Numbered from the whole stretch's first letter, positions 12,568 to 63,320 are shown. The stretch: DNA of 63,383 nucleotides, filler included, from Chrysochromulina tobinii (GCA_001275005.1; 8 parts of 8 records of this genome joined end to end with filler, not necessarily neighbours in it), one strand, 5' to 3'. Notes: generated from the letters alone by a model not told the origin. Numbers and translations: made by a program.

Positions 12568-12739
12568 GTTGTGAAGCGGGTACGCGCGCACAACGCGCGC
12601 CGATTCGTCTTTTGGCTGGCAAGGCACGCGCGAAAGCGCTCGCACCGCGCGCCCGGCGTGCGAAACTTGGGAGCAACACTTGTACCGGGTACCGGCAAAA
12701 GACTTCCCCCGTCGTCTTTTTACCGGCAAAAGACACCTG

Positions 12740-12900
12740 GGGGAGCCGGGACACACACGGGACACACACGCCGTAGCACCGGTTGTCGCGTTTGTCGTGT
12801 TAACGTTCACACACGGGACACACACACGGGACACGCGCTCACGCGGGCGCACATCAGGTAAGGAGCCGGGACACACACGGGACACACACGGGACACACGG
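12740..12900 (+). repeat. Dispersed GGGACACACAC-type repeats with a duplicated GGAGCCGGGACACACACGGGACACACACG block
   Basis: Block visible at ~12742 and ~12862, with further units at ~12810-12835. Confidence 0.8.
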
Positions 12901-14421
12901 TTCACACAGACGAACCTCACGCCATCCAAACCCACCTACCACCAATTGTACTGCACATCTACATGTACCGGTTTCATGTACCGAAAATGACCTCCAATAG
13001 TCTAACAATAGTCAATCAGTCAGTCAGTCAGTTTTGTCGCGATCCCCACGCGCTCACCACACCACCATCTCAAAGGACGGCTCCGCTCCCCTCGGTCAAC
13101 ACCCTACACAACTCCAGTCGATGAGTAGTAGTATACTCTCCGAGCTCGACAGCATGCTCGAGCCTCGACGCTCTCGGGCGAACGATCCGGGCTAGATCGG
13201 GCGTTATTAGCCGTTACCCTGATGAAGCGTACTGCACACAGTACAATGAATCAATGTCACAGTAGCAATGCACAATAGTCTACTCGAACCACATTTCGAA
13301 GGGCCAAGGTTGAAATACAAAACCCCCCTCCACCGCTCTCGCTTTCCCACGACCCGCGACTGAAACGTGGACATGCTTGGACTGGCCAGGCAAACACAAC
13401 CCCGAGAACCCCCTCTGTACTCGCAACTCGCTCTGCTCACGGCTCACTACTCTTCAAACATCTGGACGAGGACGGAAAGAGCTTGGCCCGTCGTCAGCCC
13501 CTTTGCCTTGATTTTGAGGCCGGGGACCATCGCCTTGGCGGCCTCCGGCGGGTAGAAGCGGTGATTGTGTGACCCTCCGCCTGTCCCTTTGTCAGCTCCG
13601 ACACCGGTGGGCTCGGAGTGGTTGTGGCGCCAACCAGCTTGGTGAGCAGCCCCCGAGATGAGCCGTGGGTCATCGACGCCTTCGTCGCCGTACATCTGAC
13701 AATTTTAGGATTCGAACGAGCAGCAAACCGTCAAGCGCAGCGGCAAGATAGTGGGTGCGCGGCAAGCGAGTACCTCAAAAAGTTTGCTCATGAACTTTCT
13801 GTATTGCTGCGAGAACATGGACAGCGGCTTCTCCTTCTTGGAGTAGCGTGTCGCGAGGGGCTTATACCCATTCCCAACTCCGCCGAGACCTCCCACGTAC
13901 TTCTTGAACTCGACGCACGTATTCTTGTGGCCGCCCCATTCGGGCTTCGTGAGGACCGCCCTGTCCCACTCTTCGTCTGCAAGCCTCGCGCGCTTGGCCT
14001 TCTTGGCTTCGCAAGAGTCTCCACCACATCGGTCGTCATCACCACCGACGCTCATCACCACCCTCGAGGAGCGGCTTCGAATTCGTGGATTATGGGCGGT
14101 GCTAATGTCGGAACTTCCGTGTTCCGGCCGTCAGTGTTCACAGCCAATGTTTAGAATTAGACACCCTGGTTCACAAGCCAAAGTCTCTCGTAATGTAGTG
14201 GCTATTATGAACCGGTAAAAATCGACGATGCTGTTGTAAAGAGAGGGAGGATTTTGAATGGTGCAGATCGAGAACGAGCCAACAAGACCTCTTTATTTTT
14301 GCTCGACTGTAGCCTTCACACGGAAGAAGTTTCCCTTCATCCTTGAACGAAACCTTCATTTTGATGATGGAGCCAGCCTCCGCCCGAACGGCATCAGGTC
14401 TCACTCCCCTTCTAGCCCGAC

Positions 14422-17086: not shown

Positions 17087-19216
17087 GAAGATGAGCTCTC
17101 CACAAGCGAGCGAACGGCGGCGAGGGCCGCCCAAGGAGCGGCGAGGGCCGCCGCCGCCGCCGTGGGCACTTCGATCCCGGTGACAGGACGCGCCGCAGCC
17201 CTCTCTCGAGGACCATCCTCCCTTTCCCTTCTTGCTGGCACCTCGCCTCTTCCTGGCAGCCCTGCCTCCGCTGCCTTGACCGCCGGCGCGGCCTTGCCAG
17301 TCGGCTTTCCCTCGCTCCCGCGCTGGACTATCCCACAGCTGCGCTCGGCGCTCGAGGTCGCCGGCGCCGCCCTGCCGCCTCGCGACGCATACGAACGCAG
17401 CGCTCTCGAGAGCCTCGCCCTAGAGCGAGGGCTGATCTCGCGCGCCGTGACGAGCACATCTCCTGAGGCGGCCGCGAGCGCCGCCGAAGGCGCCGACGGC
17501 TCCATCGGCTCCAACGGCTCCTTCGCCGCCGCCGCCGCTGCTGGTGCGCACATCAGCGCCTCGGCTGCGCCACTGCAGGTGATGGACTTTACAAGAGGGG
17601 GGGCGCGGGTGGGGGGTCGATCGCCGGCGTCGTCCTCACAAATGGCAGGCTCGCATGCCCAGCATGTGCCGCCCCTCGTCATCGCCGTCCCTTCCACGGA
17701 CGCGACGCCACCAGGCTCGCCCCGCGGCTCAGCGCCGTATCGAGCACCCCTCGGCTCTCCACCCCCTGCATCTCTAAGTGCTCAGCGCCGTATCGAGCGC
17801 CTCTCTTGGATGCAGAAAGCCATGCCACCGCCCTCCATGGCCTGGTCGGAGCTCTATGCCATTGCCGCCGCGGCCGCAGGCAGTGGGGAGCACTGGCAAG
17901 GCCTCCCGCAGAGCAGGATCGTCGACAGCCGCGTCGGGATGCTGATGGCAGCCGCGGGCGGCTCAGCCGCGGTGCAGGGTGCAAGCAACCGTCCTTATTC
18001 GGGCGAGGAGGACGAGGACGAGGACGAGGACGATGAGGACGACGAGGACGACGAGGACGACGAGGACGAGGACGGCGAGAGCGTCTCGCGCGCGGCGCAC
18101 ACGGCGCCCATAGACGTGGCCATCGCTGCCTGCGTGGTGCAGCCGATCGAGCAGACGCACATGTGGCTCGGGCACGCGTCGGTGATGCTCATGCTTCACG
18201 AGCATCGTCTGCGGCCGCTCCTCGGGGCTCTGCGCCGCTTCGCCCTCGGCGGCTCGGCGGACTTTGGCACGGCCCTGGTCGACTCGTTGCAAGAGGACCT
18301 GCGCAAGGGAAGGTCCCTGACCTCCCGCAGGCACGGCGTGCTCCGGCGGGCGCTCGATACGGCGCTCCGACTCTCGGAGGTCGATGACGAGAGCGGCGAG
18401 GAGCTCGCGCCGTATGCAGCGACGCTGGCGCTCGTGTGTGCGCCAGACGAGGGCGCTGGGCTCGGTGGGGGCGCTAACGCTCACGACGGCGCGAACGCTG
18501 GGACGGCGGCTGGCGCTGGGCGGCTGGCGGCGTCCGCAGCGACGAGCGGGGCGTCTCCAGAGGAACTCAGGCACCGCATCGGCGCTTTCGACGCGCTGCG
18601 CCTCGAGCTGCCCATCCCGGCGCCGTTGGATGCGGTCATCAGTGCAAAGGCGATGGACCAGTACGCAAACCTCTTCCGTCTCATCCTGCGCGTGCGGCGC
18701 GCGGCGGCCGCGCTCAGCGCGATCTGGACGACCCTGCAGCACGAGCACAAGCCGCACGACCACCAGGGCCGGGGCGACCTCGAGGAGGCGCATGCGTGGC
18801 ATTTGCTCCGGCTGCACGTGCACGAGCTGCGCCACTTTGTGAACAGCATGCAGGCGCACTTCATCGCGTACGTGTGTGGCCACTGCTACACAGAGCTTGA
18901 GAGCGCCATCGTGAGCGCCACGTCCGTGCGCGAGCTACATGCGGCGCACGACGCCTACCTGCACGCAGCGACGAGCCGTTGCCTCTTGCATGCCGCCGGG
19001 CTGCCCACCGCCTCACTGATCACCGCGGTGCTCGCCCTGGTCCTGTCCCTTCATCGTGAGGTGTGCACCGAGGGAGCGCTACCCGTCGGCGCGGCTTGGG
19101 CCGGCCTCGTCGACGCGTCGCGCCGCCAATTCGCGATGCTCGTGAGTGCGCTCGCGCGCCAGCCGCTCACGCCGCATGAGCTCGTGGCCCACCAAGTGCA
19201 CGTAGGGCTGACCTGA
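17050..19216 (+). CDS. Gamma-tubulin complex component (Spc97/Spc98 GCP family, GCP5/6-like), 5' truncated
   Basis: C-terminal GRIP2 motifs FDALRLELPIPAPLDAVIS..MDQYANLFRLILRVRRA..L..IW, LRHFVNSMQAHF and ELHAAHDAYLHAATSRCLL, preceded by a long low-complexity insert. Confidence 0.8.
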
Positions 19217-24926: not shown

Positions 24927-27791
24927 CCCTTCGGCGGAGCCACTCGACGAGCCTCTCGACGAGCCCGTTGTGGCGGAGGAGGATCCGGCAGCAGCCTTGG
25001 CCCAAGCGGCAGCAGCCCAGGCCGAGACGCCCCAAGATTGGCTGCCCCCCACCCCCCGCGCATTGGCGCCCATCCCACTGCTGCCCATCGTACTGCCAAC
25101 GTGGTCGCCCATGCCCGTACGCGTGCGCCACGTCATCTTTTGGAGCGCCTCGCGCACCTCCGAGATCGAGGGCAGCCGTTGGACGGCCGAGTTGTGCAGC
25201 CAGGCGAGCATCTGCGAGACTTCGTGCAGCTCCTCGAGCGACACGGCGTGCCCCGGCTCGTACGCACGCGGGTTGATGGCGAGCGACTGCACGAAATCGA
25301 GCGCGGGCACCTTGCCAAGGATCGAGCAGTAAAAGGCATCAGAGGTCATCAGGGAGGTCATCAGGAAGGTCATCAGAGGTCATCATGGGTCATCAGAGGT
25401 CATCAGAGGTCATCAGAGATCATCATAGGTCATCAGAGGTCATCAGAGGTCATCAGAGGTCATCAGTGGTCGTCAGAGATCATCAGAGGTCATCAGGGAG
25501 GTCATCATGAACCCTCACCTTGCCGAGGATCTTCGAGTGCAAATCGACGCAGTGCTCGGCGCCCCGAAGCGCGTCCGCACTTTCCATATTTGGGGCGCGG
25601 CAATGCAGGTAGTGCAGAGCGACGCACTCGTCAGAGCGCCCCTTGTAATTGAGCGGATGCACCGTCGAGAGCGGCGAGGCACACCGGCGCTGGTGCGCCC
25701 ACGCCTCGCACACGCTCTCTGCCGTCCGGAGAGGCAATCAGAGGCAATCAGAGGCAATCAGAGGCAATCAGAGGCAATCAGGGGCAATCAGAGGAGAGGT
25801 CCACGCCTCGCACACGCTCTCTGCCGTCCGGAGAGGCAATCAGAGGCAATCAGAGGCAATCAGAGGCAATCAGAGGCAATCAGAGGCAATCAGAGGAGAG
25901 GTCCACGCCTCGCACACGCTCTCTGCCGTCCGGAGAGGCAATCAGAGGCAATCAGAGGCAATCAGGGGCAATCAGAGGAGAGGTCCACGACTCGCACACG
26001 CTCTCTGCCGTCCGGAGAGGCACTGTGCCGTCACAAGAGGTCATCAGAGGCAATCAGAGGTCCTCATCAGAGCTCATCAAAAAGCAGCTCCTCACCTGCC
26101 GACCGGAGAGGCACCGTGCCGTCACCGTCCTCATACTGAGTGACGCAAGGTTCCTCGTTCATATTCTTAGGCCACGGCTCCGTGTACAGGAAAGAGGTCT
26201 GCGTGGGCTTGCCGGAGCCCATGTAGCACACGACGGGGATCGGTGGCGCACGCCAGATGTCGAGGAGCTCAAGGGAGGCATCGTACGCCGCCACCATCTC
26301 GCTCTTCGCGTCCGTGGGCGAGTACCTGACAAAGGAGGCAATCATCAGAGGTCATCAGAGGTCATTAGCCTTGCTCTTCGCGTCCGTGGGCGAGTACCTA
26401 ATGATGATGGGCGCCATCAGAGCTCATCAGATGGCAGAGCTCACCAAGATGGTGATGATAGGCGCACTCAGAGCTCATCAAGATGGTGATGATGGGCGCA
26501 CTCAGAGCTCATCAGCGCTCCTCAGCGGCACGCATTCGCCATCAGAGGCAATCAACTTACGCTTCGATTTTTCGTAAGAGACGACGCAGATCCGCGCGCG
26601 TGCCTCGATAGTACTCGGCACCAAATACGGACGCCGCGCCGTCGGCGCCCGTCGCGGCGCGCCCGCCATAGCGCGGCAGAGTTGACGCCCCGATCAGAGG
26701 TGCATCGCCTCCATGGAGCGACAAGATGGTCGTGTTGCCCCAGACGCGTTCATGGGGGAGCAGCATGAAGGCCGAGCCCATCTTGCGAGAAAAGTCACGT
26801 GTCTCTGCATTGGAGATGAGCAGATGCGCGGCGACCAGGGCAGTCGGACGCAATCAGGTATTGCAGGGTGCACGGATTGCTGCACGGACGTGTACACTCC
26901 GAGGTACACTCAGAGGTACAATCAGAGGTAGTGGGCTTCTAGGGGCGTCTGATATCAATCTTCAACAAATCGGTTCCTCACTCGGCACCTTTCGGCACGC
27001 TCGGAATGATTTGGCAATTCATCCTTCGCCACGGAGGTGCAATCAGAGGTGCAATCAGAGGTGCAAGCAGAGGTGCAATCAGAGGAGCCCTCGCCTGCAT
27101 CGGTGATGATCATTCGAGAGACCATCTCGGCGCCGGAGAGGAGGACCCGCGCGACCTGCGGCGAGCCCGCGAACGGCGGGGCGATCGCGACGAGCGCGCG
27201 CATCAGCGACGTCGTCTCCGGCCCAAACACCTTTTGGATGCAGTAGAGGATCTGAAGATTGCCGAGCGAGTGGCCAACCACAATCGCCTTGCGGTGGGCA
27301 GTGTCATTCGTGGCGAGGTGCAGCGTGCGCGCCAGATCGGCACACAGCTTATTCTCCGTCGGAGGCAGCCGCCAGTCAAAGGGAACGCCGAACAGATTCG
27401 TGCCCGCACGGAAGCCGGCGCGCTCGAGCTGCCCAATCATGTCCCAATACACCTTGGCCGTCGAGACGCACTCGCGCCCGACCTTGAGCAAGCATGCGAC
27501 ACCCTTGATGCCAAAGTTGGTGAAGTCTGGCTCGATGCGATGGCCAGGGCGGGGCGCCTTCGGATCGAGGGAGGCCACCCAGTCGAAGTAGAGCGACGCA
27601 CTCAGCGGTCCCATGGCTGCGGAGCGCTGCAGTAATCGATGTGACTCCGGAAGCCAGAGATGGCGTGACACTGTCTCGATCGATCCCGGCAAACGCACGT
27701 GCTCTCGCAGCCTGCTGCCCATAACGCCCGGCACTAGAATGACGGGTTGGCAAGCGCCTCGGGCGTTGCAAGCCGGCCCAGGCGCCGACAT
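24927..27791 (-). CDS. LCAT/group XV phospholipase A2 family acyltransferase; introns 26805-27094 (GC-AG), 26326-26560, 25719-26095, 25311-25518; 3' truncated
   Basis: PVILVPGVMGSRL, LFGVPFDWRL, VVGHSLG nucleophile elbow, IAPPFAGS, EDGDGTVPLRSAESVCEAW. All four splices restore one frame. Start may be 27791 or 27839. Confidence 0.88.
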
Positions 27792-36003: not shown

Positions 36004-37903
36004 CTACTCGCCCGGCTTGCGCTGCGCGTCGCGCCACACGTCTGACTCGAGGCGCTGTCCCGAGCCGATCTGAGCACTCTCAGTCGCTTCGACGACGGCG
36101 CGCATGCCGTCGGTTACACGGCGCAGCTCAGCGGCGGTCATGATGAAGGGGGGCATGGTGTAGAGCAGACGCCCAAAGGGTCTAAGCCACACGCCTCTCT
36201 CAACGAGCATCGCGCTCACGGTAGGCATGTGGATGGGCTCCTTCATCTCCACCACCCCAATGGCGCCCAGCACGCGCACGTCCTTGACAGCCGACGAGGC
36301 GGCCAGCGGGCGCAGCTCAGCCTCGAGCTGCGCCGAGATTGCACGCACACGCGCCTGCCAGGGGGTTGCGAGCAGCAGCTGCACGGATGCATGCGCCACC
36401 GCGCATGCCAGAGGGTTGGCCATGAAGGTGGGGCCGTGCATCAACGGCACCGGCCGCACGGCACCGCGCCCGCCCGAGGCTCCTTCGGCGACGGCATCGG
36501 TGGCGAGGGTCGCACCCATTGTGAGGTATCCTCCGGTGAGAGCTTTGCCGAGGCAGAGGATATCCGGTGCGATCCCCGCGTGGTCGCAGGCGAACAGCGC
36601 GCCAGTCCTTCCAAAGCCGGTGGCGATCTCGTCCAAGATGAGGAGCACGCCTGATGAAGGAGGCAATCAGGGAGGCGATTAGAGAGGCAATCAGGTGGCG
36701 ATCTCGTCCAAGATGAGGAGCTCGCCTGATGAGGGAGGCCATCAGACGGTCGCACAGGTCAGGCCTGATGAGGGAGGCCATCAGACGGTCGCACAGGTCA
36801 GGCCTGATGAGGGAGGCCATCAGACGGTCGCACAGGTCACAGCACAATCTCAAAATCTCAATCTCTCAAAATCTCAAAAGCCACCAGAGCCGGGCATACG
36901 AGGCACGCGGAGGCCCTCAAATGCCAGCAGAGGTCACACGAGGCAAGCACAAGCAGCGTTCGGAGCCGCTTCCATATTAGGCAAGCACAAGCAGCGTTCG
37001 GAGCCGCCTACCGTGCTGATTGCAGAGCTCTCGCACGCGCCGCAAATAGTCTGCCGAGTAGAAATGCATGCCGCCCGCGCCCTGCACGATCGGCTCGAGG
37101 ATCACCGCCGCGAGCTCGTGCTCGTGCTCGCGCAGCATCGTCGCAAACTCCTCGACGTCCTTCTCAGCACAAGGCTGCCCGAAGAGCGGAGCTGGGCGCG
37201 GCGCGAAGAGATGCTTCGCGAGCACGCCGCCAAACATCTCGGCATGCATGCCATTGACCGGGTCGCACACGGCCATCGCACCGAACGTGTCGCCGTGGTA
37301 GCCGCCGCGCACTGTCAGCAGGCGCGAGCGCCCCTCGATGCCGCGCGCGCGCCAGTACTGTAGCGCCATCTTGATCGCGACCTCGACGGCGATCGAGCCG
37401 GAGTCGCAAAGGAACACGCGCTGCAGCGGCTCGGGCGTGACCTGGACGAGCAGTTCGGCGAGCCGTACAGCCGGCCGGTGAGTCAGCCCACCGAACATGA
37501 CGTGCGCCATCGAGCCCAGCTGCTGCGACGCGGCCTCGTCCAGCTCAGGCACCGCGTAACCGTGCACGGCAGCCCACCATGAGGACATTCCGTCGATGAG
37601 CTCGCGGCCGTCCTCGAGGGTGAGCGTCACACCTGAGGCGTGCGATACCGCGAGGCACGGCACGGGCTGCGTCGCGCTGGTGTACGGGTGCCACAGCCGC
37701 CGTACATCGGCTGCAAGCAGTCTTTCGGTCGCGAGCGAGTTGTCGCGGTCAGCGTTGGCGCCGGCGGTCGCGTCGATGCGAGCGTTGAGGTACGGACACG
37801 ACCGGCTGCGGTCGGCCTGCGTGCTCAGTGTTCGGCGCGTACTGCAGCAGGGCGGTGGCCGTGCCAGCCAGCGCGCAGTCTGACGGAAAAGGTTGCGACG
37901 CAT
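36004..37903 (-). CDS. bioA: Adenosylmethionine-8-amino-7-oxononanoate (DAPA) aminotransferase, with a predicted mitochondrial presequence; intron 36651-37011
   Basis: [65 protein letters not shown] (PLP Lys), [13 protein letters not shown]. Arg-rich, acid-free N-terminus. Confidence 0.93.
36724..36839 (-). repeat. 3 x 39-bp tandem repeat in the bioA intron, each ending in an acceptor-like CCTCCCTCATCAG
   Basis: GCCTGATGAGGGAGGCCATCAGACGGTCGCACAGGTCA repeated three times on +. Confidence 0.9.
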
Positions 37904-40398: not shown

Positions 40399-40498
40399 NN
40401 NNNNNNNNNNNNNNNNNNNNNNNNNNNNNNNNNNNNNNNNNNTTAATTAATTAANNNNNNNNNNNNNNNNNNNNNNNNNNNNNNNNNNNNNNNNNNNN
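40399..40498. other. Artificial contig spacer
   Basis: N44-TTAATTAATTAA-N44. Confidence 0.99.
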
Positions 40499-43400
40499 GG
40501 GCGCCGGCGGCGCGGCGGACGGCGACTCACCGGTCGGATCCGCAAACGTGGACAGGAGCGCGTTCGTCGCGGAGTCGACGTGACCATCTGCCTCCGCGAG
40601 GGCCTTGGCCGCTCTCTCCTTGGAGAACCCCATGTCGACGAGCTGCTGGACCTTGGGCGGCAGAGCCGTTCGGGGGGAGCCGGCGAGGCGGAAGGAGCCG
40701 TTACGTGTCAAGGTGCCGCTGCGCGTCGACAGGCGCACCGGCGCTGCCGCGGGCGCGCCAGGCGCCGTCCCGGGCGCCATGGGTGCAAGCGCGCCGGCCG
40801 TCCTATCCTCGTCCTCGTCGGCACTCCCGATGAGGGCCGCGACCGCTTTGCTCAGATCATTGGCGTGAGCCTCGAGGGCGGCGCATGCCTGGTCGCGACT
40901 GAAGCCCATGTCCATCAGCCGCTTCCGTTCGGGCGGGTCGGCGTCATGCTGGGCGCCCAGCGCGCCATGCTGGGCGCCCAGCGCGCCCTCGGCGGCATGC
41001 ATCGGTGCCTGCATCGGCGCATGCATCTCGGGCGTGGGCGCGCGCATGGGCGCGGCCTGGTGCGCCGTGAGGAGCGCCGCCTCCTCGTCCTTTTGAATAC
41101 GCAGCTGATCGCGCTCGCTCTGGCGCAGCGCCGCGTGCTCATTCGCGCGCTCAAACTGCTCGTCCAGAGTGGCGTGCTCACGTGAGAGCTTGGCCACCGC
41201 GTCCGAGGCGAGGGCGCGCAGCGAGGCGTACGTGTCGGCGGCGAGGCGCAGCCGCTTGAGGTACTCCTGCTTCTCCATGCACTCTGTGTCGCTGATGCGC
41301 GCCTGTGTGAACTCGGCGTTCGTCGCGACGAGCGTGCTCAGGACACGCTCGTACTCACTCACCAAGGCTGCGGCCTCGGCCTGCACGGGCGCGAACTTGC
41401 CCAGGTGTGCACGCACCACGTCCATTGGAGGTGTGTCACCACAGTAGATGAGCGCGTTGATGAGGGACTGCCCAGGCACAGGGGCGGGGCGAGCAGGGCG
41501 AGATGCTGGGAGATGGGGCGGAGGTCAGGGGAGATCAGGGGAGATCATAGGAGATCAGGGGAGATCAGGGCCGCGAGAGGGGCAGTCTCAGTTTGGGGCG
41601 TGGATCCACTTTGGGGGGCAGTCTCAGGGGGGGGAAGGGGGGGAAGGGGGAGAAGGGGTGGGAAGGGTGCATGCCCATGCCGTGCAAGCCTGCATGAAGG
41701 CAAGCACCTGATCGTGGGCGGCACGCTGCACGAAGAGGTCGATGGGCGCGGGGGCGAGCGATCGGATGAGGTCGGAGGCTTGCTGATGGAAGGTCGCTTC
41801 CTCGTCGTTGATCTTGAGGATGATATCTCCGACGTTCACACCTGCCTTTGCCGCTGGTCCGTCGGGCTCGCACGAGGCGACACGCACGCCTTGCTCTTCC
41901 TTGGGGGTGTCGACGAGGATCATGCCTACGAGCCCGTCCGCATTACGCTCGATACGAATCGATCTCGTCAATCCGATCATTGACGAAGCGCGCAGAGTGA
42001 GCGCGTCGCGCGTCGTCTTGAGCGTCTCGAGCTGGTCGAGCTGCTCGCGCAGCGTGCGAAAGACGGGCAGCTTGGCCACAGGAGAGCCCCCCGCGTGAGG
42101 CAGCTGATCGATCAGGTCGGCCATGCTGAGCTCGAGCATGCTCAGCTCGCCTGATGAGGGAGGCAATCCATCTAATTAGGGAGGCAATCAAAGGCCATGC
42201 TGAGCTCGAGGGTGCTCAGCTCGCCTGATGAGGGAGGCAATCGAGATGCACTCAGAGATGCACGCAGCCAAGCTGGACGCCTGCCCACACGAGAGCACTC
42301 ACTCGACTCACCAGTGGCCGCCTCGGCGAATCCACTCGCCAGGTCCGCGTACAACCTCGCTGCGCAGGCGACCTTGTCCTCGGACGCGCTCAGCACGGCG
42401 CGAATGGCCGTGATGGTCGCCGCGCCGTCCGATGCGAGCAGTTCCCATTCGGGTCCAAACTCGCGCCGCATTTGGACTTCGCGCTCGTCCTCGAGCGCGA
42501 GAAGCTCGCCCACCTGATGAGGGAAGCAATCAATCGCGTCATCAGAGGTCATCCGAGGTCATCCGAGGTCATCAGAGGTCATCAGAAGTCATCAGAAGTC
42601 ATCCGAGGTCATCCGAGGTCATCAGAGGTCATCAGAGGTCATCAGAGGTCATCTCGAGAGTGTCGCCCACTGATGAGGCAGGCAATCGGGCACACTCACC
42701 AGTCTGATGAGGGAGGCAATCGGGCACACTCAGCGGCAATCATCGCTCGTCAGCAGCTCGCTCACCTCGGCCGCGCGCGTGGCGCACTGCTTGATGAGGA
42801 GCGACGCCTTGGCCACCTGATCATGGAGGCGATCAATGGCGTCATCAGAGGCAATCAGTTCTCATCGGCCACCTCCGTTCGCAATCAATGGCGTCATCAG
42901 AGGCCATCAGTGGCGTCACCAGAGGCCATCAGTGGCGTCATCAGAGGCCATTTTCTCATCAGCCACCTCCGTTCGCAGCGCAGGCACGCCGCCGTTGGCA
43001 TGCGCCGCCCCAATTGAATCGCGAAGCTCCCTTGGCAACCCCTCGCCTGTGGGGAGAGGAGGGGGGGGGCGCCGTGGTGAGCACTTGCATGCACGCCAAT
43101 TGAGTCGCGAAGCTCCCTTGTTGACCCCTCGCCTGTGGGGAAGGCGGGGCGCCGTGGTGAGCCCTCGCCTGTGTCGGCCTCCACGGCTTGCAACGCCCAC
43201 GGCAGGTCGTTGTCTCGCAGCACGCCCTCGCCGTGCGCGACCGCCTGTGCGAGCTGCTCCTGCAGCGCGCTCACGAGGGCGCGCTCGAGCTCATCGTACT
43301 CGACGAGCAGCGCGCGCGTCGCCTGGGGCACGATGAAAACGAACGGATCCTCCGTCGCTAGCAGCGGCGCGGTGAGCGCCGTCGTGGGCGTCGGCTTGGA

Positions 43401-45068: not shown

Positions 45069-46569
45069 ATGATCGCGACGCTCATCAAATGTGTAACGGA
45101 GAAGACCAGCGCCCACAGCGGCGCATCAATCGATTGGGTCGCCTTTTCCCAAGACGGGACCAAGCTTGTCTCGGGATCGGATGACACTAGAGGGAAATAC
45201 AGTAGGTGTCCCGGGATCAAAGTCTGGGATTCGGGTGCGCTGTCCCCTCAAATCGCGCCTCCTTGGCCAAAACTGACCCCTGCTGGCTTGTCTGGCAGAT
45301 GCGCTGGGGCTGTTGAGCGAGAAGACGAACGTCCACAGCGTTATCCACAGCGCGGACCTCAGCTCGGTCGCGTTCTCCCCGGACGGGACCAAGATTGTGT
45401 CGGGATCGGCTGACAGGACGATCAGAATCTGGGACTTGGGTGCGCCGCGAGCCCTCAAAATCGCCCCTCCTTGGCCAAAACTGACGACTGTTGGCTTGCC
45501 TGGCAGATGCCCTGGGGCTGTTGAGCGAGAAGACGAACGCGCACGGCTACTCCATCAGGTCGGTGGTATTTTCCCCGGACGGGACCAAGATTGTGTCAGG
45601 ATCGTCCGATGGGACGATCAGGGTCTGGGATTCCGGTGCGCCGGAGCCCTCAAAATCGACCCTCCTTGGCCAAAACTGACCCCTGCTGGCTTCTCTGGCA
45701 GATGCGCTGGGGCTGTTGAGCGAGAAGACGGACGCGCACAGCGCCCGGGTCATGTCAGTGGCATTTTCCCCGGACGGGACCAAGATCGTGTCTGGATCGG
45801 CTGACAAGACGATCAAAGTCTGGGATTCAGGTGTGCGCCGGAGCCCTCAAAATCGCCCCTCCTTGGCCAAAACTGACGACTGTTGGCTTGTCTGGCAGCT
45901 TTGGAGCTGATCAGCGAGAAGATGAATGCCCATAGCACTTATATCTTCTCAGTGGCGTTTTCCCCGGACGGGACCAAGATTGTCTCTGGATCGGGCGACA
46001 GGACGATCAAAGTATGGGATTCGGGTGCGCCGGAGCCCCCAAAATCGCCCCTCCTTGGCCAAAACTGACGCCTGTGCTGGCTTGTCCGGCAGATGCGCCG
46101 GGACTGTTGAGCGAGAAGCCGAACGCGCACAGTCTCTACATCCACTCGGTGGCGTTTTCCCCGGATGGCACCAAGATCGTGTCCGGATCGGCCGACAAGA
46201 CGATCAAAGTTTGGAATTTGGGTGCGCCGAGCCCTCAAAATCGCCCCTCCTTGGCCAACACTGATGCCTGCTGGCTTGTCCGGCACAGATGCGCTGGAGC
46301 TGGTGCTGATGAGCAAGAAGTCGAAAGCCCATAAGAGCACCGTTAATTCGGTGGCGTTTTCGCCCGATGGGACCAAGATCGTGTCGGGATCGAACGACGG
46401 GACGATCAAAGTCTGGGAAATGGTCGAGTGGTCTCGCAAAGATCATTTGATGTTCAACATCGCCACCCAGCGATTTGTCTTGCGGCTGCTGTGGCTGAAC
46501 AAGTACAGCATGAAGTTTCCTGATGATGTGCTTGATCTGCTCGTTCGAGCTTGCTTGCAAAGCAGGTGA
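45069..46569 (+). CDS. Seven-bladed WD40 protein, one repeat per exon (45069-45234, 45299-45439, 45507-45635, 45702-45830, 45899-46024, 46093-46221, 46289-46569), with a C-terminal F-box-like tail
   Basis: Repeats of H....[22 protein letters not shown]. Six phase-1 GT-AG introns of 64-68 nt restore a single frame. Confidence 0.9.
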
Positions 46570-47206: not shown

Positions 47207-50200
47207 TTAGGCTGCTGCTGCGGCCTGGACCTCCCGTTGACGCCGCTCGCGATTACGGATCGTACGCTGCAGCCAGCGCACCGCAAACTTGCGAGCCTGC
47301 TGTTCTGCGTGCTGTGCGCGGATAGAGCGACCCGCCATGCGAGCATGCAATTTGCTCAGCGTCTCCTGCCGTGTGCGCTCCTGCTGTCGCAGGCGCGCGG
47401 CCGCCTCGGCTGCCTCCTTCGCGGCCGCCTCGGCAATCGCCTGCTGCTCGTTGCGCCGCCTTGCAGCAGCGTCCCTTGCGGCCGTTGCGGCCGCCGCGCG
47501 CTGCGCCGGCGTCTCACCCTGTCTGACCGCCGTCGTCGCCACATCAGTCGGCTCGTCAGTCGCCACGTCAATTGCAAAAGAAAGTGCCATGTCAGTCGGC
47601 TCGTCCGCCGCGCACTGCACCGGGACATCGCTCTGCACGTCTGCCGCGGCCGCCACGTGCTTCGCACCCGAGTCATCCACCCCCGCCATATCCGACGCAC
47701 CATCCACATCTTCAACGTCTGCGCCGAGCTCGGTCGCGTGCGCTTCAAGGTCGATCACGTCAACCCTTGAAGCGGAGTGTGCAATTTTGTCGACCCTGTC
47801 CGCGCGGCCATCGTTGCGGCCATCCCCGCGGCTCGAACGCCCGCGCGCCCGCGATTGCAGACGCGTCGCCGCTGCCTCCTTCTCGTCCATCCCCGCGCCA
47901 CCCTCATCCGCCTGATTGCCACCCTCATCCGCCTGATTAGGGGCGTCATCCGCCTGATTTGGGGCGGCGGTCCTCGCATCTCTGCTACTGGCAAGCCGCT
48001 GCGCGTCGGCAAGCCGCTGCGCGTCGGCAAAGTGTTGCGCGTCGGCAAAGTGCTGCACGTTGGCAAGGCAGCCGCGCGCAAACGGATCAAGTATCGGGTC
48101 GTTGAGCTCGATGATCGCCTGCAGCCGCTCGAGCCCGCCACAGCGCTTTAGCTGCTCGACACACGTGATCTCGGTGCACAGGTTCTGAAGGGCACCTAGG
48201 GCGTACACCAGGGTCAGCCGGTCCTGGTCATCAGCGAAGAGGTGCGGCAACACGAGGCCGAAGGCGCCCGCCGCCCTGAGTAGCGCCTTCGTCTCCTCGG
48301 CGTGCGGGTCGACAGCCTCGCATGCAAGGTCGGCCACGAGCATGAGGGCCATCCGATGCACCTGATGAAGGAGGCAATCGTGAGTCATCAGTGATCATCA
48401 GAGGTCATCAGCCACGAGCATGAGGGCCATCCGATGCACCTCGGCTGAGGGGTTTCCAAGCAGCCCGACGATGAGCTCGACGCCGCCCGTGGCGCGCAGG
48501 CCCTCGCACAGCGCGATCGCATCGTCGCCGTAGCTGCCGTTGGCAAGCAGAGCGAGCTGGTGCAGCGCCTTGCCCTTGTCCGCCTCGCTGCTGCTGCTCA
48601 GCCGAAGAACTCCGACGAGACCCATCAGCTCCCGCGCGGGCGTCTGCACGGGGGGTAGCTCTGGTCGAGCTTCGACCGCTTCCGGAAGACGAGCGGTGCT
48701 TTCCACGGCCGTGTGCGCCGCAGCTGCTTGCATGATCGCCCATCCTCGCTTCCATTCATCCAGGTCAATGTCGCCGTTGTCGTCGATGTCGAGTTCGGCG
48801 TCGAGGCTGCTAAGCACCTCCTCCTTCACGTCGCCGCGCTGGCGCAGGTATTCCTTCATCGATTCGATCGGGATGCGGGCCGATCCCTCGGCCACGACCT
48901 TGAACAGACTCTCAGCGACCAGAAGATCCATTTCCGAGGCGGGTGGAACAGGCTCTGTTTCGCCCTTGGGCTTGGCAGACGGTGCTACGGCCACCGGCGC
49001 GGCGCCGGCGGCGGATCCCTTAGGCAGCTGCCGCGCGGGGGGGCGAAGGGCCGCTGCGGCGGAGGCGGGTGTGGCCACCGCCTGCGCGGTGCTGATTGGC
49101 AGCACGAGCGGGAGGATGCGTGGCGAGCGGGAGTGAATCTCGGAGTGTATCTCGGAGGCAAGCGGGAGGATGCGTGACGAGCGGGAGTGTATCTCGGAGG
49201 CAAGCGGGAGGATGCGTGGCGAGCGGTACACTCCCTCGGAGCCGCCGTGCACGTGGCCGAGGGGTAGGTCGAGGGGCGTGCCGTCGGAGGCGATCGGCAC
49301 GATCTGAAAGGGAGCGTACTTTCTCGTGATCGACGGCGGAGCTGTCCATGCGCCGTCGTGAGCGCCGTCGTCGCCGTCCACTACGTCCACGCTCTTCGTC
49401 CGATTGCGACATCGCTTGGACACAAAGAACCACGAGAGGAAAGCGACAGCGAGGAGGACGATCAGGCCCAGGATCGCCGCCACGCTCGCCGGCAGCTCCT
49501 CGGGAGCTACGTCGATCTGACCGTACTCGGCCGTTAAAAGGGGCATGCCCAATACGGCGCTCTCGCCCCCAGGGAATAGCCACGCGGAGGCCGCGCTCGC
49601 ACTCGCGACGGCCGGGGCGAGGGCCCCATACACAAGCGCCGCCGCCGGCACCGAGGAGACCGTGATCGTCGCGTCGATGACCATCGAGGCAGCGCCGAAC
49701 CTCAGCTGGACGGCATCGCTTGGCACGGAAGCGGTGGTGGCGATGGTGCTTTGCATGTCGCTCCGCCGCAGCTCATCGAACGCGCTCAGCTCGGCGTCGC
49801 ACACGACGCGCAGCCGGATGAGTACGGAGCGTAACGTCTCCCAGCTTCTCAAGGGCGGCAGCGTGGCCACCGTTGTCGTCGGGCGGCTGGCCTCGCCCGC
49901 CGCGCGGCAATACATCGGCTCATGGATCGTCACAGGCGGCTCTGCGCGTGTCGCAACGGCAGCCGCGCACCGCGCCGCATCGCCCTCCCAGCCAGCGCAC
50001 CCAAAGTTGACAGCAGCACGGTCGAGGCAACCATACACACGCGCGTAGCAGCTGCCGTCATTCACGGTCGCGTGCGCGTCGAAGTTGATCGCCGACGGCG
50101 TCGTGCATCCGTACCGCTCCCACCGGCACATCGAGGGCACATGCACCGTCGCCGCCGCGTTGTACGTGGCGGAGCCCCCAAAGTCGACCCTACGGCCGAC

Positions 50201-51664
50201 GCTGCTGCGTGCCGCCCCTGCCCCGGAACCAGGCATCATGCAGCCGCGCACGCTCGGCACGCACCACGTGCGTGTGTTGAGCGTCGCGTCAGGGTCGTAG
50301 TTGGCGGCGCTCGAGTCGGTACATCCCTCGATGCGGAGGACGCAGCCGGAGAGCACGGTGGCAAAGTCGAGGTAGTTGAGCGCCGGAGACTCCAAACCCA
50401 ACTCCCCCGGCCGTCCCATGGGAACCGCCGACGACGCGTTGGTCATCAGAGGGCTGAACACAGCCCTCTGGCTGGCGCTGGGTTTGAGGGTGCACCCAGC
50501 GATGGCCTCGACGCAAGAGCCGTCGTCGTGCGTAGCGCGCGAGTTGAAGTTGACTGCTGTGGCGCTCGTACAGCCCGGCGTCGCGTACCGGCAAAAGGAG
50601 GACTGTCGCGCGTCGGGCTGGTAGTTGAGTGCCCCTGGGAAGAGGCAGCCGGGGAAGAACGGAGCGGGCACCGCGCACAACTGGGGCACGTGCACGTCGG
50701 CACTCGGCTCGTACTGCGCATCGGTGGGCACGAGGCAGCCGGCGAAGGGCAGGCGAATCGTGTGGACCACCGTGCCCGTCGCGCCGCCGTGTAGGACGGG
50801 GCTGCCACGGGGGCACCTTCGCGGCGCATTCGCGGTGTTGATCGGGGCGCCCGTCGCGCTGCGCGGGTAGGTCGCGATGGTGGTGCCGCACTCAACCTGA
50901 CCCTCCGCCGACTCGTAACAGATTCCTCGCCCTCCGTGGCAGAGGGAGCCGATGTACTCTGCGGCGCTGCGGTTCGAATGGATGGCGCACCGGCCGAACG
51001 CGAGGCAGCGCGAGAAGCCGTAGTGGAGCGAGAGGCTCGCGGCGCGCGGCTCGAGAGTCATGCCCCCGCTCTGATATGAGGCGACCATTGTGACGTTACG
51101 ACTCACCCAATGAGAGCCATGCCCCCGCTCGGAGACGGCGTACGTGCCGAGGGAATAGTACGAATCGACCCGCACACGACGTGCGTTGCGCGCCTCGGTG
51201 CTCACGCCGAGGTATTCCTCATCGAGCGCGCCCACGTAGCCTGCCGCACCGCGCGCATCCGTGCCCACGATGGTGTCGGAGATGGGCGCGTTGGCCATGC
51301 CAGGGCGCGACGCATAGATCCAGTGGCGAGCGCCAAGGACCTCGTCGGTCATGGCAGGGTGCACGTACCTGTGGGGAAGGGCGAGGCGCCGTGATGAGCA
51401 CTTGCATGCTAGGTCACGGCAGGGTGCAAGTATGTTGGCATCGACGAGATTGACGAGATGGCATCGACGAAACTCATGGGAGGGTGCACGTACGTTGGCA
51501 TCGACGAGCGAACGTCGGTGGCGTACAGACACATGCGTCGGCAGTCTTGCGCGGGCGGCGGCGGCGTGGGCGGCGGGAAGGGCGGCGGCGAGGGCGGCGG
51601 CGAGGGGGGCGGCGGCAAGGGCGGCGGCCGCCTGGGGGGCGGCGGCTTGGGCGGCGGCCGGGGA
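47207..51664 (-). CDS. Large single-pass membrane protein: Pro-rich linker, Cys-rich GC..A.N(Y/F)...A..DDGSC repeats, TM, EF-hand, ARM-like repeats, IQ motif; introns 51369-51493 and 48362-48439; 5' truncated
   Basis: GCTSATAVNFNSRATHDDGSC-type repeats; TM VAAILGLIVLLAVAFLSWFFV; DIDDNGDIDLDE; ARM-like GGVELIVGLL and YALGALQNL; AATRLQSRARG. Confidence 0.75.
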
Positions 51665-52206: not shown

Positions 52207-54081
52207 TCATCCATTTGGATACGTGAGTCTAGTGTCGTGCTCGTCGCTCGCGTACGTTGGAAGTCCAGACTCCCAAAGGTAAGGTGCCCCACCCTCAACT
52301 CGTAGCCGAGACACAAGCGGAGGGAGCAAATCTCGGGTAAATCGAGTGCCTTCTAGCACCATCCCGTAGGCTCGGCCATCCTCATTGATAGAAGGGCGGG
52401 AAACCCAATCTTGCATCCAACACCGGGGTGGTAGCCAGCGTGTCTGATGGGTAATCAGGTTGACAAAGAACACGCAGCCATAGGCGGTTCGCAGGCTGAT
52501 CCACGGGGCTGAACGCACGCAGCCGGTCTCAGTATGGAGCATGAGCACTTTGCTCTCGCAGTCCTCAAAGAGGGGTACCCACGGAGTGCCTCGAAGTGAG
52601 TAGAGACCCAACCCAGGAGGAAAACAGGGCGGCGGCTCAGTGAAGGGAGCGGCTGCACCCGGCAAAAACTGCACGCTCTGGAGATGGATGGCTCCATGCC
52701 GAGTAGACCCAGGCGGAGGGTCCCAACTGACCATCCCACTGCCATCATCATAGTAACAGATGGCACCGGACCGATCGGCACAGAGACGGACAACGCAGCC
52801 ATCCGGTGGCAGCAACGGAGGGGCTGTCGATCCGTCCGCGAGGAGTGCATGTCCGATGCAATCATTGGTGCCTTGTTTGCATGACATTGGGTGAAGCTTC
52901 GAGATGACTCCAAGTTCTGAACGATAAAGGAGCTCTCCGTCCACTGAGCCCACATCAAAGGAGATTATTGGCTGAGGTGACGATGCCCGTATCGCAAGGA
53001 TGCGCTCTCGGCGGGCAGAAGCAGCACGGCGAGCAGCCGCTGTAGGAGATGCAGCTGCACGGCGGCGAAGGCGGTAAGCGGTGTCAAGAGCAGCCCAAAT
53101 GTGGACTGGGACTGCCGCGAACATTCGGCCTGCAGCAGCACGCGCCCTTCCGGCTGCGGCATGGGTAGCTGTCCTCTTGGTCTGTGGAGCTGACAACGGT
53201 ACAAGCCCATTGCGCACAGCGGCTAAGGAAGTAATCGCGGCAGTCAGCTCGCTAGCGAATTGCACCTGAGAAGATCGCGCTCTGTTCCTTGCTACTCTAT
53301 CCGGCGTCGCTGCTAGCTCTGGTGGGGAGCAAGGAGGAGATGGCGGGAGCGAGCCTGTTGGGACGGCGACGAGTGTCGACTGTGATAACTGAAGGGGCCC
53401 TGCCTGTTCCAGTGGGTTTCGCCGGACAGCAGCCTGAGCTGCCTCTAACCCATCTGGCTCATCCGTGCATTTCACTGGTGAGAGTGAGAGTCTGTATGGG
53501 CCACGCGGCAGCAGGCTCTGGTTGACAGCGTCGGCTGCAGGTGCCAGCCAGGTGGGATAGCTGACGGTGTAGCCTGCGGCTTCGATGCCCTCAGCTTCAT
53601 CGACTTGCTCGTACCACCCTTGGCATAGTGCCAGTGCCTCACGGCGTTGAAGAGCATAACCCCTGGATGCTGGATTTGGTGAAGAGTTGCTATCAGCGGT
53701 CCGTAAGGAACGGCGATGCCAGAGGAATGCGAGACGTTCGAAGAGGTAAAGGCTAGACGCGTCTCGTCCCATGACACGCGCCAACTCGGGTGCGCCCCCC
53801 TTCTTTGATAGTGTGCGCGTAGAGACGACTGGCGTCACATCGGTGAGTGCCGTCGCACCCCCTTGCTTAGACGCATAGTTGTCAATGGTGCCTGTCGACT
53901 CATGTTGACTGGTCGACTCGACAACCAATTCCACCCCCTGCGTCGACAGCTGGGGTCGGCGACGGACTGCTCGGCGCCACCGAGATTGTATTGTCCGTGC
54001 CGCTGAGGACTGGGATGTTGAAGGCGGTGAAGGCGGTGACGACGTAGCCGTTGAATGCCTTGCTGCTACTGTCGCCACCAA
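52207..54081 (-). CDS. Intronless ORF with tandem WW-like domains, possibly TE-borne; 5' end uncertain
   Basis: GAICYYDDGSGMVSWDPP, WVPLFED...MLHTETGCVRSAPW and GCVFFVNLITHQTRWLPP; IQ-like AARTIQSRWR. Codon usage atypical of the host genes. Confidence 0.55.
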   Translation of the reverse strand: MVATVAARHSTATSSPPSPPSTSQSSAARTIQSRWRRAVRRRPQLSTQGVELVVESTSQHESTGTIDNYASKQGGATALTDVTPVVSTRTLSKKGGAPELARVMGRDASSLYLFERLAFLWHRRSLRTADSNSSPNPASRGYALQRREALALCQGWYEQVDEAEGIEAAGYTVSYPTWLAPAADAVNQSLLPRGPYRLSLSPVKCTDEPDGLEAAQAAVRRNPLEQAGPLQLSQSTLVAVPTGSLPPSPPCSPPELAATPDRVARNRARSSQVQFASELTAAITSLAAVRNGLVPLSAPQTKRTATHAAAGRARAAAGRMFAAVPVHIWAALDTAYRLRRRAAASPTAAARRAASARRERILAIRASSPQPIISFDVGSVDGELLYRSELGVISKLHPMSCKQGTNDCIGHALLADGSTAPPLLPPDGCVVRLCADRSGAICYYDDGSGMVSWDPPPGSTRHGAIHLQSVQFLPGAAAPFTEPPPCFPPGLGLYSLRGTPWVPLFEDCESKVLMLHTETGCVRSAPWISLRTAYGCVFFVNLITHQTRWLPPRCWMQDWVSRPSINEDGRAYGMVLEGTRFTRDLLPPLVSRLRVEGGAPYLWESGLPTYASDEHDTRLTYPNG

Positions 54082-54216
54082 CGCATCTGCAAAAGCCCGT
54101 CGTTGTTGGTATGCAGCTTCCCACTCAGGGGCTTAGGCAATGGTCCGTTGGCAGTTCCCGCGGTGCTAGCTTCGCTACTAGCCTGCGCGTCAAGTCTGCC
54201 GACACCCTTCGAGCCA

Positions 54217-62232: not shown

Positions 62233-63320
62233 TCACGCCTCGAATATGTGAACGTGGCCCGACCCGGTCGCACAGGCCACCGCACGCCCTCTCACGTGCG
62301 TCGCGATGCGCGAAGGGACTGCAGTCATCAGGCTGGAAGAGAGGCTCGCAAGGTGCTCACCGGTAGAGGCCGAGAAGACTTCGCACGTGCGTTCCATCCC
62401 GCCGCAGAGGATGGCGTCTGCCCCTGTGCAGTCCAGCTCACACCCGGAGAGGAACGCCATCTCAGGGGCCATCTCGTATCGCAGGGGCCATCAACAAGGA
62501 CCGTCAGGGACTGGCAGTGAAAGGTCCTCCACAGGGGCCATCAACAAGGACTGTCAGGGACTGGCAGGAGAGGTCCTCCACGGCCACCGGTGAGTTTCAA
62601 GAGGCCAGCTGAGGAGCACACACCTGCAGTCCAGATGGCCCGAAACGGGAGGAGCCAGCGCCCCGTGCTAGTACGGTGGGTGATGAGAGGTTCAGCCTCA
62701 GGCGCCGTGATTGGATCCCCCGTGATTCGATCGCCCAAGGGCAAGATTCGCAGGCGGTCGTCGAAGCACGTCACCGCAAGGCGGCCAGAGCCGTCGGGGG
62801 CCCATTCGGCTGCCTGCGTGGCCTTGGGTAGCGCGATCGTCACGACCGGACCTGCTCGCGCTCCCATATTGCGCACGTCCCATACCTGTAGAGGGGTTCC
62901 GAGCTCGAGAACGTGACTCAGAATCCGTCAGGCCGCCTTCAGCCGTGGCCGTGAGAGCGATGGGCATCCACGGACCTTGACGGACGCATCCGAGCTCGAG
63001 GAAGCCAAGAGCCAAGGCCGCCCATGGTCATCCAGCGAGAGTGAGTTGATCTTCAGGCCATGGCTCCGCACCACCTTTTCGCACACGAGACCCGTCCGGG
63101 GGTCCACAGCGCAAAGGCTACCCTCGTTCGTCCCCAGCCACATCGTCGCCGCCGCACCATCCAACGCGAATGCGGACCACGCGTGCTCCGTTGAGACATG
63201 CAGCGTCTCAAAGGCGCGCATCTCCACATTCAAGCAACGTACGGTGCCATCATACGAGGCGCAAAAGAGCGCATCCGTTGAGCGCAGGCCCCACCGGAGC
63301 CCCGAGATGCCCTGGCGCAC
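62233..63320 (-). CDS. WDR76: WDR76/Cmr1 (DDB2-related) WD40 protein, 3' part; exons 63320-62976, 62885-62624, 62423-62233
   Basis: SYDGTVR, SSSDASVK|VWDVR, HRTSTGRWLLPFRAIW, MERTCEVFS, AVPSRIATH, ATGSGHVHIF. The upstream intron ends in TGATTACTTCCCTCATCAG (63321-63339). Confidence 0.82.

What the first reader, a model, noticed from the sequence alone, without database searches (positions are those of the whole stretch)
48333..48441. Candidate intron-generating system: short repeat inserts flanked by long duplications of the exon junction
SEEN, cleanest case: a perfect 31-bp direct repeat (48333-48363 = 48411-48441; - strand AGGTGCATCGGATGGCCCTCATGCTCGTGGC) brackets a 47-bp insert of decamers (TGATGACCTC TGATGATCAC TGATGACTCA CGATTGCCTC CTTCATC). 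Removing 48362-48439 as a GT-AG intron exactly restores the pre-insertion coding sequence. The same logic, with perfect to decayed duplications of ~10-38 bp, recurs at 6343-6417, 6938-7032, 7211-7293 (22-bp perfect), 25311-25518, 25719-26095 (28/30), 26326-26397 (27-bp), 26805-27094, 36651-36725, 42151-42224, 42514-42765, 42817-42966, 43047-43132, 51369-51493 and 62424-62623. There are two polarities: either the duplicated downstream exon supplies the donor, or the duplicated upstream exon supplies the acceptor AG. KNOWN: Introners (e.g. Micromonas, Aureococcus) are mostly fixed-length elements with short TSDs, and duplication of an AG|GT proto-splice site is a classical intron-gain model. INFERENCE: long variable duplications plus variable-number decamer cores point to staggered-break repair with reiterative templated synthesis (telomerase-/TPRT-like or Pol-theta-like), generating introns over a range of ages. 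No autonomous partner is visible here.
Basis: partly seen in the sequence, partly recalled or inferred. Interest (0 to 1): 0.92.

Follow-up and report, generated by a model that had tools for sequence, protein, structure and literature searches.

The report
Copied intron ends make new introns
In a freshwater haptophyte alga, 42-49-base pieces that look like the back end of an intron sit in genes behind a 20-37-base duplicate of the gene's own sequence, are missing from matching RNA contigs as spliced introns would be, and are present in some strains but absent in others, which likely marks an ongoing way of making introns that a published introner survey did not record for this species.

Summary
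A perfect 31-bp repeat brackets a 47-bp insert; removing 48362-48439 (GT-AG) opens the frame, and a lake RNA contig lacks exactly those 78 nt. The organism is Chrysochromulina tobinii or a near relative. Five RNA joints match predicted introns. Read-through ORFs from other assemblies show presence/absence both ways: a window intron is missing in a sister lineage, a sister-lineage intron is missing in the window, and one unit varies among close strains. The focal insert itself is shared by 30 of 31 informative ORFs, so it is not very young. Corrections: there are two module families; four listed 'introns' are sub-units stacked on larger introns; telomerase-like synthesis is not supported. Best reading: a 42-49-nt branch-plus-acceptor module copied in trans with a long target duplication, likely by reverse transcription; DNA-templated repair is the main rival. 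No enzyme was found. The scan noted the same footprint before on another piece of this genome (e1-2577349). New variant of introner-type intron gain.

The parts
48362..48439 (-). Focal GT-AG intron, 78 nt: 29-nt copy of the downstream exon plus 49-nt family-A module (decamer units, branch-like TGAT, acceptor ...CCTTCATCAG)
   Evidence: RNA contig X14 record 26 skips 78 nt, unique GT-AG reading; in 30 of 31 informative read-through ORFs
48411..48441 (-). Upstream copy of the 31-bp direct repeat (AG + donor + 27 nt)
48333..48363 (-). Downstream copy of the 31-bp direct repeat (acceptor AG + exon start)
   Evidence: the X14 allele differs at 48332, which would lengthen the repeat to 34 bp (table 5, my reading)
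47207..51541 (-). Host gene, large protein without Pfam hit; open frame of 1,377 codons over the part modelled after removing 48362-48439 and 51369-51493
51369..51493 (-). Intron, 125 nt: two copies of the exon start, one of the upstream exon end, 43-nt family-B module; target lacks AG, module supplies it
   Evidence: X14 skips 125 nt
49983..50001 (-). Empty site in the window: a sister lineage has a family-A intron between 50001 and 50000 with a copy of about 18 exon bases (inferred from protein read-through)
   Evidence: 23 ORFs filled, 8 empty, 9 uninformative of 40
43047..43168 (-). BRO1/ALIX gene: two stacked family-B units (86 + 36 nt), removed as one 122-nt block; absent in a sister lineage
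   Evidence: 29 filled, 17 empty, 2 uninformative of 48 ORFs
42817..42966 (-). Older family-A intron with only a 7-nt boundary repeat; the internal copy of exon end + donor is absent in L007 (local duplication)
   Evidence: skipped in X15, retained in X13
42514..42765 (-). Family-A intron, 252 nt, decayed 12/14 duplication, long decamer array
   Evidence: RNA X13 skips 252 nt
42151..42311 (-). Intron block, 161 nt, ending in the stacked 74-nt unit 42151-42224 (1 copy in the window, 2 in L007, 4 in L005)
   Evidence: X14 skips 161 nt
36651..37011 (-). BioA intron block ending in the stacked 75-nt unit 36651-36725 (31/32 duplication + 43-nt module)
   Evidence: Pfam PF00202 positions 223 then 225, frame, C. 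parva model P0103; no RNA laid
26326..26560 (-). LCAT-like gene: old intron 26398-26560 plus stacked unit 26326-26397 whose module is unlike the old acceptor; unit absent in some close strains
   Evidence: 8 filled, 2 empty, 4 uninformative of 14 ORFs; no RNA laid
25311..27094 (-). Other LCAT introns (26805-27094, 25719-26095, 25311-25518) with upstream-exon copies and decamer arrays
   Evidence: frame opens when removed; scores; no empty site seen for the two that were covered
6343..7293 (+). Three predicted introns (6343-6417, 6938-7032, 7211-7293); the last has a 22-bp perfect repeat spanning AG|GC
   Evidence: splicing not tested
62424..62623 (-). Predicted intron with a 50-bp tandem repeat; boundary duplication not above background when ungapped

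Best explanation
A 42-49-nt module holding a branch-like motif and an AG acceptor sits behind a 20-37-nt copy of the exon that follows it, and it was likely copied in from elsewhere by reverse transcription of an RNA that ends at that AG. Inferred steps: the host gene is nicked on both strands 20-37 nt apart; the nick next to G|GY primes reverse transcription on the RNA's AG end (target-primed, as for non-autonomous non-LTR elements); copying stops after about 45 nt; fill-in duplicates the target. Where the duplicate starts with GT or GC, it serves as donor and the coding sequence is restored exactly, so the insertion survives. The same event at an existing acceptor gives the stacked units. 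Shown here: splicing at five blocks, presence/absence at three sites, lack of a local source for several modules, and later local amplification of units. Not shown: the enzyme, the RNA template, and the direction of change at each polymorphic site.
For: Fixed 3' end at AG with variable 5' end and variable long duplication in 6 of 6 units measured (29, 32, 25, 32, 37, 22 nt duplicated; 49, 43, 47, 42, 49, 43 nt module). Best match of the module is distal rather than local in 5 of 6 (focal 25 vs 8.5). Empty sites with one copy of the duplicated segment: BRO1 17 ORFs, all 17 reading on into the next unspliced intron; reciprocal site empty in the window; LCAT unit absent in 2 ORFs that start in the old acceptor. 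Repeats lie only in the sense direction (101 sense, 0 antisense hits in 19 stretches) and 18 of 19 decamer clusters lie in sense-strand introns, none in clear intergenic DNA, which points to a link with transcripts. RTE retrotransposons are a precedent for 3'-partial copies with simple repeats and 20-bp duplications (PMC2887409, passages).
Against: No reverse transcriptase in the window (24 ORFs scanned; one atlas search gave only WW-domain leads) and no genome to search. Fixed AG end and sense orientation are also what selection for splicing leaves, whatever the mechanism. Plain target-primed insertion should leave many neutral intergenic copies; none was seen in 63 kb. Modules show no stable fold (z 0.5 to -1.3 in 7 of 7). 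5'-junction microhomology is only suggestive (P = 0.06). Long direct repeats also allow precise loss, so empty sites can be deletions; no outgroup was obtained (one search gave no informative distant locus; the search never finished). Only six units were measured, chosen by me.
Confidence: 0.42

Rival explanations
1. DNA-templated repair: a staggered break or stalled fork switches by microhomology to another intron's DNA, copies about 45 nt and returns upstream, giving the duplication (polymerase-theta or template-switch type). No element is needed.
For: Local duplication is common here: 30 loci with exact repeats of 18 nt or more, 15 without family words. Junctions of three stacked units lie within 9-20 nt of tail homology. 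Exon ends resemble module words at several 5' junctions (ATGGCC, GATCGCC, ATGACC, GCATGC; seen). Thousands of donors exist (summed depth 742,795 vs 107 at the array, not a copy number). Staggered-break gain is proposed for Daphnia (PMC4202315, passages).
Against: Daphnia repeats are 4-12 bp and inserts are not one family. It does not explain the narrow module length, the shared CCTTCATCAG tail variant in three young-looking units, or the lack of intergenic copies. Microhomology test P = 0.06.
Confidence: 0.25
2. Two-step local origin: an ordinary short-duplication introner inserts, local slippage then duplicates acceptor plus exon start, and the first unit is lost, leaving an apparent long duplication.
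For: 42817-42966 fits a 4-nt duplication followed by CT and an inverted CTGATGAG/CTCATCAG end, the Symbiodinium pattern (10.1101/2020.10.14.339549). Unit 42151-42224 is in 1, 2 or 4 copies; the internal exon-end copy in 42817-42966 is absent in L007. Marine Chrysochromulina have 4-bp-TSD introners.
Against: The LCAT unit's module is unlike the neighbouring old acceptor and the unit is polymorphic. The long BRO1 unit holds more family-B consensus than the short one beside it. Three clean cases need an extra precise loss each.
Confidence: 0.15
3. Rolling-circle (HUH) transposition, Replitron- or Helitron-like, with one fixed end at an RG target and a variable duplication.
For: Replitron-1 inserts orientation-specifically at RG with variable-length duplications, and one Replitron protein was recovered from C. 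tobinii (PMC10288648, section 9 and passages).
Against: No terminal direct repeat or hairpin, no 'fuzzy end' of parental flank seen, elements there are 0.9-3.6 kb; that paper saw no duplications in other Replitron families.
Confidence: 0.07
4. Telomerase-like reiterative synthesis from one small RNA template.
For: Variable numbers of 10-mers; a CCTC overlap could allow realignment (sequence).
Against: Units inside the focal insert differ from each other beside a perfect duplication; variant words such as CACTGATGAC and CCTTCATCAG recur in unlinked introns; family B has no decamers; array length changes by local slippage.
Confidence: 0.05
5. Old introns invaded by a minisatellite, or assembly artefact.
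For: Most introns here carry some repeat array; most sites tested are shared by all close strains listed; assemblies do mis-join at family-B tails (L004).
Against: Empty genomic-type sites in both directions; BioA is of bacterial type (E 3.7e-160 to solved bacterial-type BioA), so its intron is likely a gain; identical structure in two other assemblies and matching RNA joints.
Confidence: 0.06

Closest known systems
Introners with short target duplications (Symbiodinium, Polarella classes 4-15; marine Chrysochromulina MAG family 5; 10.1101/2020.10.14.339549 parts 1-2 of 4 read; 10.1101/2022.06.06.494994 passages)
   Same: One splice site carried, the other recruited from the duplicated target; coding sequence unchanged; GC donors common.
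   Different: Their duplications are fixed at 3-8 nt; here 20-37 nt and variable, the carried part is only an intron 3' end with internal repeats, and it also lands on existing acceptors. C. tobinii is listed with 0 introner families (PMC12130899, supplement file 7 row 1838).
Non-LTR-derived introners (about 5% of classified families, PMC12130899 passages) and 3'-partial RTE copies with simple repeats (PMC2887409 passages)
   Same: Fixed 3' end, variable 5' end, long duplication, repeat units.
   Different: No homology to a known element, no poly(A), no autonomous partner found; the 3' end is the splice acceptor itself.
Intron gain at staggered double-strand breaks in Daphnia pulex (PMC4202315 passages)
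   Same: Direct repeat of exon ends, polymorphic new introns, repeated gains at one position.
   Different: Repeats of 4-12 bp there; here longer, and the filler belongs to two genome-wide families.
Tandem genomic duplication of AGGT and reverse-transcription template switching (PMC3443670 passages)
   Same: Duplicated proto-splice site gives exact intron; homology to other introns.
   Different: Here duplication and an imported branch/acceptor module occur together and repeatedly.
Replitron-1 of Chlamydomonas (PMC10288648 section 9)
   Same: RG target, one fixed end, variable duplication.
   Different: No terminal direct repeats, hairpin, parental flank or transposase seen.

Membership tests
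Introner (intron-generating mobile element, broad sense) | Copies are spliced out as introns | tested here: met
   5 of 5 RNA joints examined map to one GT/GC-AG reading; contigs only; 42817-42966 skipped in X15, retained in X13
Introner (broad sense) | Similar sequence at many unrelated gene positions | tested here: met
   family words shared among unlinked introns; heavy pile-up of contigs from other loci
Introner (broad sense) | Empty orthologous sites | tested here: met
   three sites by protein read-through; DNA of the empty alleles seen only for the window's own empty site
Introner (broad sense) | Gain rather than loss (outgroup polarity) | tested here: inconclusive
   L009 lacks the region; search did not finish; reciprocal pattern needs either gains or two losses
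Introner (broad sense) | Near-identical, full-length, similar-length copies | tested here: not met
   5' part of each intron is locus-specific; shared part 18-45 nt and variable; introns 65-377 nt
TIR DNA-transposon introner (MITE type) | Short fixed target duplication | tested here: not met
   22-37 nt in six units; only 42817-42966 fits 4 nt
TIR DNA-transposon introner (MITE type) | Terminal inverted repeats | tested here: inconclusive
   7-8-nt CTGATGA(G)/(C)TCATCAG in some family-A inserts, but it is part of the decamer; folds not above shuffles; absent in family B
Non-LTR / SINE-like retroelement | Fixed 3' end, variable 5' end, variable duplication | tested here: met
   6 of 6 units, all filtered by selection for splicing
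Non-LTR / SINE-like retroelement | Autonomous partner sharing the 3' end; longer master copy | not testable with these tools
   no genome held; none in 24 window ORFs
Non-LTR / SINE-like retroelement | Copies in both orientations outside genes | tested here: not met
   0 antisense hits in 19 stretches, no clear intergenic cluster in 63 kb; small sample
Replitron / Helitron | Terminal direct repeat or hairpin, HUH transposase | tested here: not met
   transposase elsewhere in the genome not testable

The most novel reading that the evidence does not exclude
There is no separate element: the 3' ends of the alga's own excised introns (free AG-3'OH) are the templates, copied back into transcribed genes at G|GY sites and at existing acceptors with a 20-37-nt duplication, so that intron ends breed new introns, stacked units are removed by recursive splicing, and the long repeats let each new intron be lost precisely again.
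Probability: 0.2. Interest if true: 0.92.

Novelty: new variant of a known kind. Interest (0 to 1): 0.7.

Why it matters
How new spliceosomal introns arise is still open outside a few transposon-derived cases. Here gains and empty sites segregate among strains of a cultured alga with small genome, so the mechanism can be caught by comparing genomes or by mutation-accumulation lines. The footprint (long variable duplication, short shared core) would be missed by searches for near-identical full-length introns, which may explain the zero count for this species and suggests undercounting elsewhere (inference). The stacked units also mislead gene prediction: three NCBI models carry extra or truncated sequence at these junctions (P0032, P0100, P0138).

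Tried and rejected
No whole genome was held, so no genome-wide count. Viral contigs: four pattern scans gave 0, 2, 0 and 1 loci; two are AT-rich chance matches, L012 is a chimeric end with a family-B tail. GTDB scan: 3 hits in bacterial sequence, read as chance. Search for longer BRO1 homologues found one distant protein. Three of 10 exact look-ups were not in the collection, among them the exon after the focal intron. Logan DNA contigs cannot tell filled from empty at a 31-bp repeat. X12 and X11 did not bridge the focal site. Stem-loop in the modules: rejected. 5' microhomology: not significant. Atlas search for the 1,272-aa ORF 9196-13011 did not complete. Outgroup search with P0074 stayed in the queue. 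P0074, the one empty-type ORF at the focal site, was not counted as proof: it may be a true empty allele, a precise loss or a collapsed assembly.

Full report
Observation. The two 31-bp stretches are identical and cannot be extended; 48362-48439 on the minus strand begins GT and ends AG; removing it gives an open frame, leaving it gives two stops. Fourteen of the 15 listed sites score above a background of 19,690 random donor/acceptor pairs (p <= 0.0033); 62424-62623 does not. The sites were chosen for their repeats, so this overstates significance. An unbiased scan found 30 loci with exact repeats of at least 18 nt, 20-450 nt apart; 15 hold family words and 15 do not, so local duplication is common in this genome.

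Organism and data. No genome was held. Window proteins fall in the same clusters as annotated proteins of Chrysochromulina tobinii and C. parva. Holders of the DNA are mixed-culture and freshwater runs. Two other assemblies match the window across the focal site; they may be the same culture.

Splicing. A 4,249-nt contig of poly(A) lake run X14, 2-4% different from the window, skips 78 nt at the focal site and 125 nt at 51369-51493. Its codons next to the site read S-P-T, as in genomic read-through ORFs P0054 and P0080 that carry the insert, so the skip is most likely splicing and not an empty allele. In the BRO1/ALIX gene, run X13, with no differences from the window over its long pieces, skips 122 and 252 nt, X14 skips 161 nt, and DNA run X2 runs through unspliced. 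Each of these five joints has one GT/GC-AG reading, the predicted one. Intron 42817-42966 is skipped in X15 but retained in X13. All of this is from contigs, not raw reads. For BioA and the LCAT-like gene only frame and Pfam continuity support the introns.

Anatomy. Two modules exist: family A (10-12-nt units such as TGATTGCCTC and TGATGACCTC, ending CCCTCATCAG or CCTTCATCAG) and family B (GCATGCAAGTGCTCACCACGGCGCC, pyrimidines, CACAG). That these hold branch sites is my inference from the CTGAY/CTCAC consensus (recalled). In six units that I chose, 22-37 nt of the downstream exon precede 42-49 nt of module. Two are free-standing (focal, 51369); four sit at the acceptor of a longer block. The module's best match is distal in five of six. 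Variant words recur in unlinked introns. All 101 decamer hits in 19 stretches are in the sense direction (strand of 7888 taken from the motif itself).

Presence and absence. Gene callers that ignore introns read into them, which shows the state of a site in other assemblies. Among listed cluster members (at most 15 per cluster; not independent samples): BRO1 43047-43168 filled in 29, empty in 17, uninformative in 2 of 48, and all 17 read on into the next unspliced intron; a site at 50001/50000 filled in 23, empty in 8, uninformative in 9 of 40, with the window empty; LCAT unit 26326-26397 filled in 8, absent in 2, uninformative in 4 of 14; the focal site filled in 30, empty in 1, uninformative in 9 of 40 (annotated models P0032 and P0138 left out). 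The focal insert therefore predates the split from a lineage about 4% away. Other sites were shared by all close strains listed. These are protein-level readings; DNA of the sister lineage was not obtained, and no outgroup fixes the direction.

Later change. Unit 42151-42224 occurs once, twice or four times; one ORF shows three BRO1 units; the internal exon-end copy in 42817-42966 is missing in L007. So some long boundary repeats, perhaps including the 'upstream-exon' cases, arise by local slippage at older introns.

Mechanism. The fixed AG end, variable 5' end and long variable duplication are the pattern of target-primed reverse transcription (established knowledge; RTE precedent in PMC2887409, passages). 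I put it at 0.42, including the variant in which the RNA is an excised intron. Against it: no enzyme, selection alone can give the fixed end and the orientation, and no intergenic copies were seen although about 60% of this genome is non-coding (40% coding in PMC4580454, passages). That absence, if it holds genome-wide, favours a transcript-coupled route. DNA-templated repair (0.25) and a short-duplication introner reshaped by slippage (0.15) remain open. Telomerase-like synthesis is unlikely.

Comparison with print. Ten full-text searches found no paper describing this footprint in Chrysochromulina; subscription journals are not covered, and I recall, unchecked, that the Emiliania huxleyi genome paper mentions 10-11-bp repeats and GC donors in introns. 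Described algal introners have 3-8-nt duplications; haptophyte rows of the 2025 survey give 2-5 nt where given, one E. huxleyi family with '10bp terminal direct repeats', and 0 families for C. tobinii (supplement files 13-14 not searched). I saw only part of the Chrysochromulina rows of the 2022 supplement, which was cut when stored. Direct repeats of 4-30 bp near splice sites are reported generally (PMC11782384, abstract only). The bioRxiv supplements were closed. The scan's own note e1-2577349 describes the same footprint on another piece of this genome; its count of over a hundred related introns was not checked here.

Verdict. A real, spliced, strain-variable intron-making process with an unusually long duplication and a minimal acceptor module; works like an introner, is not a member of the short-duplication TIR type, and its enzyme is unknown. 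New variant of a known kind; interest 0.70.

Noticed in passing
window 47897-47966: In-frame 21-nt exon repeat (three copies; RNA contig X14 lacks 42 nt) reads on the opposite strand as a 16/18 match to the family-A tail; may be an antisense copy kept in frame or chance after duplication. No fair control was run.
   Followed up: partly
window 7888-7975: Family-A tail on the - strand next to an inverted 42-nt, 88% copy of 7278-7319; no gene assigned.
   Followed up: partly
   Followed up: no
window 17727-17798: 19-bp perfect repeat around a 34-nt pyrimidine-rich insert resembling part of intron 42225-42311; no exact GT/GC-AG reading found by eye.
   Followed up: partly
window 36725, 42765, 7211, 25518: Intron copies of the exon start differ from the exon so as to read GYGAG, a better donor; at 36725 this lies inside a larger block, as recursive splicing would favour.
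   Followed up: no
table 5c, tables 5 and 5c: Contigs from other loci join family A and family B modules through 12-40 unrelated letters, as expected for mixed stacking elsewhere in the genome.
   Followed up: no
L004:1400-1480, L008:737-744, P0057: Chimeric or rearranged contigs: L004 leaves BRO1 at a family-B tail; L008 joins BRO1 to the focal gene; P0057 and P0093 carry the focal exon end and insert behind a different N-terminus.
   Followed up: no
window 45215-46418: WD40-like repeat array of about 197 bp period; each unit seems to hold its own short intron (my reading; not tested).
   Followed up: no
window 52207-54132 and 9193-13011: Long ORFs (641 and 1,272 aa) in lower-GC DNA without a passing Pfam hit; could be mobile-element remnants.
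   Followed up: partly
window N runs (e.g. 40399-40498): The window is eight contigs joined by N-TTAATTAATTAA-N linkers, so neighbours across them are not linked.
   Followed up: yes
L012:2850-3060: Haptophyte-like end on a viral contig: 30-bp repeat around a different decamer array, then a family-B tail.
   Followed up: no
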